A stretch of 64,000 bases of DNA. Source: Escherichia coli. Its GTDB lineage: Bacteria; Pseudomonadota; Gammaproteobacteria; Enterobacterales; Enterobacteriaceae. The notes beneath the pieces were generated by a model. The model was not told the origin of the DNA. It did no database searches and saw nothing but the letters and a program-made list of their open reading frames with translations. The position numbers and the translations under genes were made by a program. The DNA lies in assembly GCF_003334385.1 (NCBI RefSeq), contig NZ_QOWN01000003.1. One strand, 5' to 3'. Positions 52,682 through 52,775 of this stretch are shown in pieces; positions within the stretch are counted from its first letter, which is position 1; each line of letters starts with the position of its first letter.

Positions 52682-52697
52682 GATAAAACGTTTTATC
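52682..52697. promoter_or_regulatory. MalI operator palindrome (malX-proximal)
   Basis: Perfect 16-bp palindrome GATAAAACGTTTTATC in the malX-malI divergent region. Confidence 0.7.
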
Positions 52698-52759
52698 AAA
52701 TTTTAGTGAGGCATAAATCACATTACGCAACGATAATAGCGGGTATAAGATAAATAAAA

Positions 52760-52775
52760 GGTAAAACGTTTTATC
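52760..52775. promoter_or_regulatory. MalI operator palindrome (malI-proximal)
   Basis: GGTAAAACGTTTTATC, a second copy of the same operator with one change in the outer arm, about 30 bp upstream of the malI ATG. Confidence 0.7.

What the first reader, a model, noticed from the sequence alone, without database searches (positions are those of the whole stretch)
52682..52775. Duplicated perfect MalI-type palindrome in the malX-malI divergent promoter region
GATAAAACGTTTTATC occurs at 52682-52697 and, with one outer-arm change, at 52760-52775, about 78 bp apart between the malX and malI starts. A duplicated LacI-family operator of this kind would allow one repressor to control both divergent promoters. 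I could not find a correctly spaced CRP site by eye.
Basis: partly seen in the sequence, partly recalled or inferred. Interest (0 to 1): 0.3.

Follow-up and report, generated by a model that had tools for sequence, protein, structure and literature searches.

The report
Known MalI operators at malX-malI promoters
The two near-identical 16-bp palindromes between E. coli malX and malI are the already published binding sites of the MalI repressor, one at each divergent promoter, so the finding is real but ordinary textbook-level regulation.

Summary
GATAAAACGTTTTATC lies at 52682-52697 and GGTAAAACGTTTTATC at 52760-52775, 78 bp apart, in the 174-bp malX-malI intergenic region. This stretch of the window is identical to E. 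coli K-12 MG1655. The pair is not chance: these are the only hits with up to 3 mismatches in 64 kb, and about 7e-6 second copies are expected in the spacer.

The feature is already known. Sellars et al. [quoted passage not shown] Their supplement gives the MalI site as exactly GATAAAACGTTTTATC, citing Lloyd et al. 2008 and 2010.

In 80 other enterobacterial species both operators are present, 78-79 bp apart, with an almost invariant core.

Its key bases are conserved in nearly all species. It sits exactly 29.5 bp from a conserved -10-like hexamer on each side.

The malX-side operator (O1) overlaps the malX -10 hexamer. The malI-side operator (O2) lies just downstream of the malI start, which gives autoregulation. 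Out-of-phase spacing (about 7.4 turns) and the lack of a LacI-type tetramerisation tail fit independent action rather than looping.

Novelty: already known. Interest is low.

The parts
52682..52697 (.). O1: MalI operator at the malX promoter, GATAAAACGTTTTATC, a perfect 16-bp palindrome with a central CG. From my recollection of Lloyd 2010 it spans -24 to -9 of malX.
   Evidence: Searches give the sequence. The identical 16-mer is the published MalI DNA site used for the MalO array. It is present in 81/81 sequences with positions 1-6, 8-14 and 16 invariant.
52760..52775 (.). O2: MalI operator at the malI promoter, GGTAAAACGTTTTATC, with one change at position 2. From my recollection of Lloyd 2010 it spans +3 to +18 of malI; it is the autoregulatory site.
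   Evidence: MalI binds a 16-bp site at both promoters. The site is present in 81/81 sequences, and variation is concentrated at positions 2, 7 and 15.
52704..52725 (.). Shared CRP site (22-mer). The core is TGAGGCATAAATCACA at 52707-52722 and the dyad is at 52714.5.
   Evidence: The core matches the consensus with 2 mismatches, which is not significant on its own. T4, G5, G7 and TCACA are at least 95% conserved in the 78 distinct sequences of the alignment, while the spacer varies. The TCACA distance from O1 is fixed in 81/81 sequences and the AGTG distance in 78/81. malI and malX are CRP targets in genomic SELEX. The positions -41.5 (malX) and -43.5 (malI) come from my recollection of Lloyd 2008 and are consistent with the operator positions.
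52680..52685 (-). Inferred malX -10 hexamer TATCTT (minus strand). It overlaps the outer four bases of O1.
   Evidence: AAGATA on the plus strand is invariant in 81/81 sequences, including the two bases outside the operator. Its first base is 29.5 bp from the CRP dyad, which is class-II geometry. This is an inference from the sequence.
52744..52749 (+). Inferred malI -10 hexamer TATAAG.
   Evidence: TATAA is conserved at a fixed distance (+46 from the end of O1) in 79 of 81 sequences. Its first base is 29.5 bp from the CRP dyad. This is an inference.
52806..53834 (+). malI, the LacI/GalR-family repressor (342 aa) that binds O1 and O2.
   Evidence: RefSeq annotation. Pfam LacI HTH (E=1.5e-18) and Peripla_BP_1 (E=9e-108). 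It aligns to LacI residues 2-325 only, so it has no tetramerisation tail.
49857..52631 (-). The malX-malY operon (malX 51039-52631, malY 49857-51029), the target of repression from O1.
   Evidence: Annotation. malI loss-of-function mutants raise malX and malY transcripts 7.4- and 6.2-fold (PMC12089948).

Best explanation
The two palindromes are the two operators of the LacI/GalR-family repressor MalI in the divergent malX-malI control region of E. coli. A MalI dimer on O1 (52682-52697) covers the spacer and the first four bases of the malX -10 hexamer (TATCTT). It therefore excludes RNA polymerase from the CRP-dependent malXY promoter. A second MalI dimer on O2 (52760-52775) sits just downstream of the malI transcription start. 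It blocks open-complex formation or promoter escape and so gives negative autoregulation. A single CRP site centred at 52714.5, between the two promoters, activates them. Each -10-like hexamer starts 29.5 bp from the CRP dyad. The two operators act independently rather than through a repression loop. Shown here or in papers I could read: the sequence and its conservation, the identity of the 16-mer with the published MalI site, MalI repression of malXY, and the LacI-family architecture. Inferred: the -10 assignments and the steric mechanism. Recalled from Lloyd et al. 2008 and 2010, which I could not read here: the exact TSS positions and the operator-independence experiments.
For: The sequence is at the stated coordinates. 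The locus is E. coli malX-malI: 100% identity to many genomes, presence in 5416 of 5426 complete genomes, and identity to MG1655 1699086-1699486. Sellars et al. [quoted passage not shown] Their supplement marks GATAAAACGTTTTATC as the MalI DNA site, and MalI::mCherry forms foci on arrays of it. malI null mutations de-repress malX and malY, and they are selected when malY expression is needed. MalI has a LacI HTH plus Peripla_BP_1. Even palindromes with a central CG, and autoregulation, are typical of the LacI family (PMC4052901). Both operators and the divergent malX gene are present in 80 of 80 other enterobacterial species, 78-79 bp apart. The core positions are invariant in 162 operator copies, and variation is limited to positions 2, 7 and 15. 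The CRP half-sites and both -10-like hexamers are conserved at fixed distances. The recalled published positions (-24 to -9 and -41.5 for malX; +3 to +18 and -43.5 for malI) all map consistently onto single start sites at 52673 and 52758.
Against: The primary footprint and mutagenesis papers (Lloyd 2008, 2010) were not readable here, so TSS positions and operator independence rest on my recollection. Shimada et al. 2011 describe malI-malXY as regulated by 'different CRP molecules', which conflicts with a single shared CRP site. The CRP core match (2 mismatches) is not above chance on sequence alone: 18 such matches occur in the window against 27 expected. No canonical sigma-70 promoter was detected by the consensus scan, although that is expected for activator-dependent promoters. 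A genome-wide TSS table does not list the proximal malI start and instead gives a weak start at window 52500.
Confidence: 0.93

Rival explanations
1. The two operators work together: MalI bound at O1 and O2 forms a repression loop, as LacI or GalR do, enclosing the CRP site and both promoters. Full repression of either promoter would then need both sites.
For: Two near-identical sites flank the whole control region. The 78-79 bp spacing is strictly conserved in 81 sequences. GalR, a dimeric relative, is known to loop DNA with help from HU (my own knowledge).
Against: The centre-to-centre spacing of 78-79 bp is 7.4-7.5 helical turns, so the sites lie on opposite faces. MalI ends where LacI residue ~325 aligns, so it lacks the C-terminal tetramerisation helix. 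The conserved spacing is fully explained by the fixed CRP/-10 promoter geometry. As I recall it, Lloyd et al. 2010 reported that each operator is dispensable for repression of the other promoter.
Confidence: 0.04
2. MalI acts mainly as a CytR-like anti-activator. Bound at O1, 6 bp from the edge of the CRP site, it contacts or masks CRP rather than simply occluding RNA polymerase.
For: MalI is a homologue of CytR (title of Reidl et al. 1989, cited). The gap between O1 (ends at 52697) and the CRP 22-mer (starts at 52704) is only 6 bp. The O1-to-CRP distance is invariant in 81 sequences.
Against: O1 overlaps the -10 hexamer directly, which is sufficient for steric repression. MalI binds arrays of the isolated 16-mer in vivo without any CRP site, whereas CytR has weak operators that depend on CRP. 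O2 is 53 bp from the CRP dyad and still confers repression.
Confidence: 0.02
3. The palindromes function as nucleic-acid hairpins, either a 5'-UTR stem-loop in malI mRNA or a cruciform, or they are a chance repeat, and are not protein operators.
For: O2 lies in the transcribed leader of malI and can form a 7-bp A/U-rich stem.
Against: The fold of the malI leader is no better than shuffles (z = -0.20). Variation at the symmetric positions 2 and 15 is always one-sided (A/C, G/T, A/G) and never compensatory in 162 copies. By the recalled TSS, O1 is upstream of the malX start and so is not transcribed from that promoter. Chance is excluded by an expectation of about 7e-6 and by conservation.
Confidence: 0.01

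Closest known systems
MalI operators of the E. coli K-12 malX-malI divergent promoters (Lloyd, Godfrey and Busby 2010, FEMS Microbiol Lett 305:28; Lloyd et al. 2008, FEMS Microbiol Lett 288:250)
   Same: This is the same locus, and the sequence is identical to MG1655 1699086-1699486. The 16-mer is the one used as the 'MalI DNA site'. It has the same two-site layout, one site per promoter.
   Different: Nothing differs; this is the object itself. The comparative data here (81 sequences) only add that the layout is conserved across Enterobacteriaceae.
Generic LacI/GalR-family operators (PurR, GalR, CcpA cre, etc.; Ravcheev et al. 2014, PMC4052901)
   Same: It is an even 16-bp palindrome with a central CG step. 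It lies 38-59 bp upstream of the start codons. The regulator gene is adjacent and autoregulated.
   Different: The half-site sequence (GATAAAAC) is specific to MalI. The effector of MalI is, to my knowledge, still unidentified.
lac and gal operator pairs that repress by DNA looping
   Same: There are two or more related palindromic operators for one LacI-family repressor in one control region that also has a CRP site.
   Different: Here each operator serves its own promoter. The spacing is out of helical phase (about 7.4 turns), and MalI lacks the LacI tetramerisation tail. No looping is expected.

Membership tests
MalI operator (E. coli malX-malI) | The sequence equals the experimentally used MalI DNA site GATAAAACGTTTTATC | tested here: met
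   O1 is identical and O2 differs at one base. The published site is in the supplement of PMC5543585.
MalI operator (E. coli malX-malI) | Located in the malX-malI intergenic region, one site at each divergent promoter | tested here: met
   Annotation is, and coordinates.
MalI operator (E. coli malX-malI) | MalI protein physically binds both sites, and mutations in them relieve repression | not testable with these tools
   This is reported by Lloyd et al. 2010, which was not readable here. Indirect support: MalI::mCherry forms foci on arrays of the 16-mer, and malI mutants de-repress malXY.
LacI/GalR-family operator | Even-length palindrome (16-22 bp) with a central CG | tested here: met
   The sequence shows it directly. 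The family criterion comes from PMC4052901. C8 and G9 are invariant in 162 copies.
LacI/GalR-family operator | A cognate LacI-family regulator with an N-terminal HTH and a periplasmic-binding-protein-like core is encoded nearby | tested here: met
   Pfam LacI (PF00356) and Peripla_BP_1 (PF00532) match MalI. PDB homologues include CcpA, RbsR, LacI and PurR.
LacI/GalR-family operator | Conserved as a phylogenetic footprint upstream of orthologous genes | tested here: met
   Both sites are present in 80 of 80 other species loci.
Class II CRP-dependent promoter (shared CRP site) | A TGTGA-N6-TCACA-like site about 41.5 bp upstream of the TSS | tested here: inconclusive
   The core TGAGG-N6-TCACA has 2 mismatches and is not significant alone. 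G5, G7 and TCACA are conserved. The dyad is 29.5 bp from both -10-like hexamers, which is derived from the sequence. The TSS positions come only from recollection of Lloyd 2008. CRP binding to this region is listed.
Looping operator pair (lac/gal type) | Operators in helical phase and a repressor able to bridge two sites (a tetramer or dimer-dimer contacts) | tested here: not met
   78-79 bp corresponds to 7.4-7.5 turns. MalI lacks the LacI C-terminal tetramerisation segment.

The most novel reading that the evidence does not exclude
The strictly conserved layout (O1, a 6-bp gap, the CRP site, then O2 53 bp from the CRP dyad) might not reflect two fully independent occlusion sites. It might instead reflect a higher-order MalI-CRP-MalI complex on CRP-bent DNA, that is CytR-like anti-activation or bend-assisted bridging of two MalI dimers. 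The conserved half-site ATAAAACG at the malX start codon, 53 bp (5.0 turns) from O1, could be an auxiliary contact.
Probability: 0.04. Interest if true: 0.4.

Novelty: already known. Interest (0 to 1): 0.07.

Why it matters
It matters little as a discovery. The sites, their repressor and the shared CRP control were characterised experimentally in 2008-2010 and have since been reused as a MalO/MalI fluorescent reporter-operator tool. The check is useful as a calibration case. The comparative analysis here shows that the whole O1-CRP-(-10)-O2 architecture is essentially fixed across about 80 enterobacterial species. The one open biological question at this locus, the inducer of MalI, is not addressed by this finding.

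Tried and rejected
1. I tried to read the primary papers (Lloyd 2008 and 2010 by DOI and PMID; Reidl and Boos 1991, PMC208166; Grainger 2005, PMC1308901; Thomason 2015, PMC4288677). None is held. Exact TSS and operator positions therefore rest on recollection, cross-checked only for internal consistency with the sequence.

2. I tried to verify the TSSs in public genome-wide TSS tables. The Cappable-seq GTF is truncated before this locus. Table S1 of Kim et al. 2012 lists only a weak 10-read start at window 52500 for malI and none for malX. This neither supports nor refutes the published starts.

3. The consensus sigma-70 promoter and terminator scan of 52550-52900 found nothing.

4. The CRP core search across the whole window showed that the site is not distinguishable from chance by sequence match alone. 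Conservation and geometry were needed.

5. One literature search ('malI', '43.5', 'CRP') was wasted on word-start matches to 'malignancy'.

6. The RNA hairpin reading of O2 is rejected (z = -0.20; no compensatory changes).

7. The lone half-site at the malX start codon is rejected as a third operator. It has no second arm, and two of its bases are not conserved.

8. A genome-wide search for further MalI sites in E. coli was not possible, because the BLAST-based tool needs at least 30 bases. Only the 64-kb window was scanned.

Full report
**Observation**

The window sequence shows GATAAAACGTTTTATC at 52682-52697 and GGTAAAACGTTTTATC at 52760-52775. The first is a perfect 16-bp palindrome with a central CG. 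The second differs only at position 2 (A to G).

A pattern search allowing up to 3 mismatches finds only these two sites in the 64-kb window. Shuffles give 0.24 on average, and 1 of 100 shuffles reached two matches.

A single perfect 16-bp palindrome is not remarkable. The window has three, and a first-order Markov model expects about 1.2. A second copy with at most 1 mismatch inside the same 174-bp spacer has an expectation of about 7e-6 given the local base composition.

**Identity of the locus**

- Window 52300-53100 is 100% identical to many E. coli chromosomes and is present in 5416 of 5426 complete genomes.
- The 174-bp spacer alone is at least 99% identical in 4997 genomes.
- Window 52500-52900 is identical to MG1655 1699086-1699486, reverse complement.
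- RefSeq annotation places malY at 49857-51029 (-), malX at 51039-52631 (-) and malI at 52806-53834 (+).
- MalI carries a LacI-type HTH (PF00356, E=1.5e-18) and a Peripla_BP_1 core (PF00532, E=9e-108).
- Its closest solved relatives are LacI-family repressors such as CcpA, RbsR, LacI and PurR.

**What is already published**

Sellars et al. 2017 (PMC5543585) state that MalI is a GalR/LacI-family repressor. [quoted passage not shown] 2008 and 2010.

Their oligonucleotide table marks the 'MalI DNA site' as GATAAAACGTTTTATC, which is exactly O1. MalI::mCherry forms foci on chromosomal arrays of 20 copies of that 16-mer.

Independent genetics agree:
- malI loss-of-function alleles raise malX and malY transcripts 7.4- and 6.2-fold (PMC12089948).
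- malI mutations are selected when malY must be expressed (PMC6296033).
- malI and malX are listed among known CRP targets recovered by genomic SELEX (PMC3105977).
- Both genes fall in the type-1 incoherent CRP feed-forward class (PMC6121374).

The primary papers could not be opened. From my own recollection of their abstracts:
- the malX operator spans -24 to -9;
- the malI operator spans +3 to +18;
- a single CRP site lies at -41.5 relative to malX and -43.5 relative to malI;
- each operator is dispensable for repression of the other promoter.

These four recalled numbers are mutually consistent on this sequence. They all resolve to a malX start at 52673 (-), a malI start at 52758 (+, an A) and a CRP dyad at 52714.5.

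**Comparative evidence generated here**

A protein-guided scan of one genome per species returned 80 loci with MalI orthologues at 69-100% identity. They come from Escherichia, Citrobacter, Salmonella enterica subsp. arizonae, Enterobacter, Klebsiella, Kluyvera, Raoultella, Leclercia, Lelliottia, Trabulsiella and others.

In every one, malX is divergent from malI, and two copies of the 16-mer (at most 2 mismatches) lie in the spacer. The spacing is 79 bp in 75 sequences and 78 bp in 6, counting the window.

Across the 162 operator copies:
- positions 1, 3-6, 8, 9 and 11-14 are invariant;
- positions 10 and 16 each have one exception;
- variation is concentrated at positions 2, 7 and 15.

The symmetric pair 2/15 never changes in a compensatory way. 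Only A/T, A/C, G/T and A/G combinations occur. This argues for a protein site and against a hairpin. The malI leader RNA folds no better than shuffled sequence (z = -0.20).

**The CRP site and the promoters**

TGAGGCATAAATCACA at 52707-52722 matches TGTGA-N6-TCACA with two mismatches. That is not above chance by itself: 18 such matches occur in the window against 27 expected.

The alignment of 78 distinct spacers supports it. TTTAGTG, the G at consensus position 7 and ATCACA are conserved in at least 95% of sequences, while the 4-bp centre varies freely. This is the pattern expected of a CRP site.

The distances from O1 are fixed:

| Element | Distance from the end of O1 | Sequences with that distance |
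|---|---|---|
| AGTG | 7 bp | 78 of 81 |
| TCACA | 20 bp | 81 of 81 |
| TATAA | 46 bp | 79 of 81 |

The single-base difference between the 78- and 79-bp classes lies between TATAA and O2.

Two -10-like hexamers are conserved:
- TATCTT on the minus strand (52685 to 52680). It is invariant in 81 of 81 sequences, including the two bases that lie outside O1.
- TATAAG on the plus strand (52744-52749).

The first base of each is exactly 29.5 bp from the CRP dyad. That is the geometry of a class II CRP promoter (dyad at -41.5, hexamer starting at -12). This symmetry is my inference from the sequence. It explains how one CRP dimer can serve both promoters.

It also suggests that the recalled -43.5 value for malI reflects a start 9 nt, rather than 7 nt, downstream of the hexamer.

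The simple sigma-70 scan finds no canonical promoter. That fits promoters lacking a -35 element.

Shimada et al. 2011 describe the pair as controlled by 'different CRP molecules'. I found no second conserved CRP-like site, so I cannot reconcile that statement with the sequence.

**Mechanism**

O1 shares its outer four bases with the malX -10 hexamer and covers the spacer. Bound MalI should therefore exclude RNA polymerase from the malXY promoter. It is notable that position 2 of O1 is invariant while its symmetric partner, position 15, is about 50:50 T/C. This is consistent with a double constraint from the operator and the -10 hexamer.

O2 begins 10-11 bp downstream of the malI -10 hexamer, inside the polymerase footprint. 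It therefore gives negative autoregulation, as in 72% of LacI-family regulators (PMC4052901).

Looping is unlikely for three reasons:
- 78-79 bp is 7.4-7.5 helical turns;
- MalI (342 aa) aligns to LacI residues 2-325 and lacks the C-terminal tetramerisation segment;
- the conserved spacing is fully accounted for by the promoter geometry.

**Comparison and verdict**

This is not merely like the MalI operators; it is them. All the family criteria I could test are met. It is an even palindrome with a central CG, next to a cognate LacI-family gene, identical to the published site, and conserved as a phylogenetic footprint.

Physical binding and operator mutagenesis are published but could not be re-read here. 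The looping-pair criterion was tested and is not met. Novelty is 'already known' and interest is low.

The only residual novel reading is a higher-order MalI-CRP complex on bent DNA, or a role for the lone half-site at the malX start codon. I give it about 4%.

**Things seen in passing**

- A second duplicated palindrome pair lies upstream of uidR and uidA.
- A weak published TSS lies antisense inside malX at 52500.
- A lone ATAAAACG half-site overlaps the malX start codon.
- Two unrelated perfect 16-bp palindromes lie at 832 and 48789.

Noticed in passing
window 54807-54820 and 55855-55868: ATTGGTTAACCAAT, a perfect 14-bp palindrome, lies 114 bp upstream of the uidR start (54934). A one-mismatch copy, ATTGGTTAACTAAT, lies 47 bp upstream of the uidA start (55915). 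The other four matches with up to 3 mismatches in the window all carry 3 mismatches. This looks like a second duplicated operator pair, presumably for the TetR-family repressor UidR.
   Followed up: partly
window 52500 (+ strand), inside the malX coding region: Table S1 of Kim et al. 2012 (PMC3415461) assigns to malI a 10-read transcription start at U00096.2 1697510 (-). This maps to window 52500, 306 nt upstream of the malI ATG and antisense to malX. The proximal malI start is absent from that table. A transcript from there would read through O1, the CRP site and O2.
   Followed up: partly
window 52630-52637: A lone MalI half-site, ATAAAACG, overlaps the malX start codon. Its implied centre is 53 bp (about 5.0 turns) from the O1 centre. 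Four of the six occurrences of this 8-mer in 64 kb are in this region. There is no second arm, and 52632-52633 vary between species. It is probably an RBS/start-codon constraint or chance.
   Followed up: partly
window 52680-52685 and 52744-52749, relative to 52714.5: The two conserved -10-like hexamers (TATCTT on the minus strand, TATAAG on the plus strand) each begin exactly 29.5 bp from the CRP dyad. This gives a mirror-symmetric class-II layout. The 1-bp difference between Escherichia (78 bp) and most other genera (79 bp) lies between the malI -10 hexamer and O2.
   Followed up: yes
window 832-847 and 48789-48804: There are two other perfect 16-bp palindromes: CCCTGAAATTTCAGGG at 832 and TCCTCAGCGCTGAGGA at 48789. 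The latter lies within the 3' part of the add gene region. Neither has a second copy that I looked for.
   Followed up: no
PMC3105977 (Shimada et al. 2011), concerning window 52632-52805: That paper groups malI-malXY with divergent promoters 'regulated by different CRP molecules'. The sequence and its conservation show only one convincing CRP site. The discrepancy is not resolved.
   Followed up: partly
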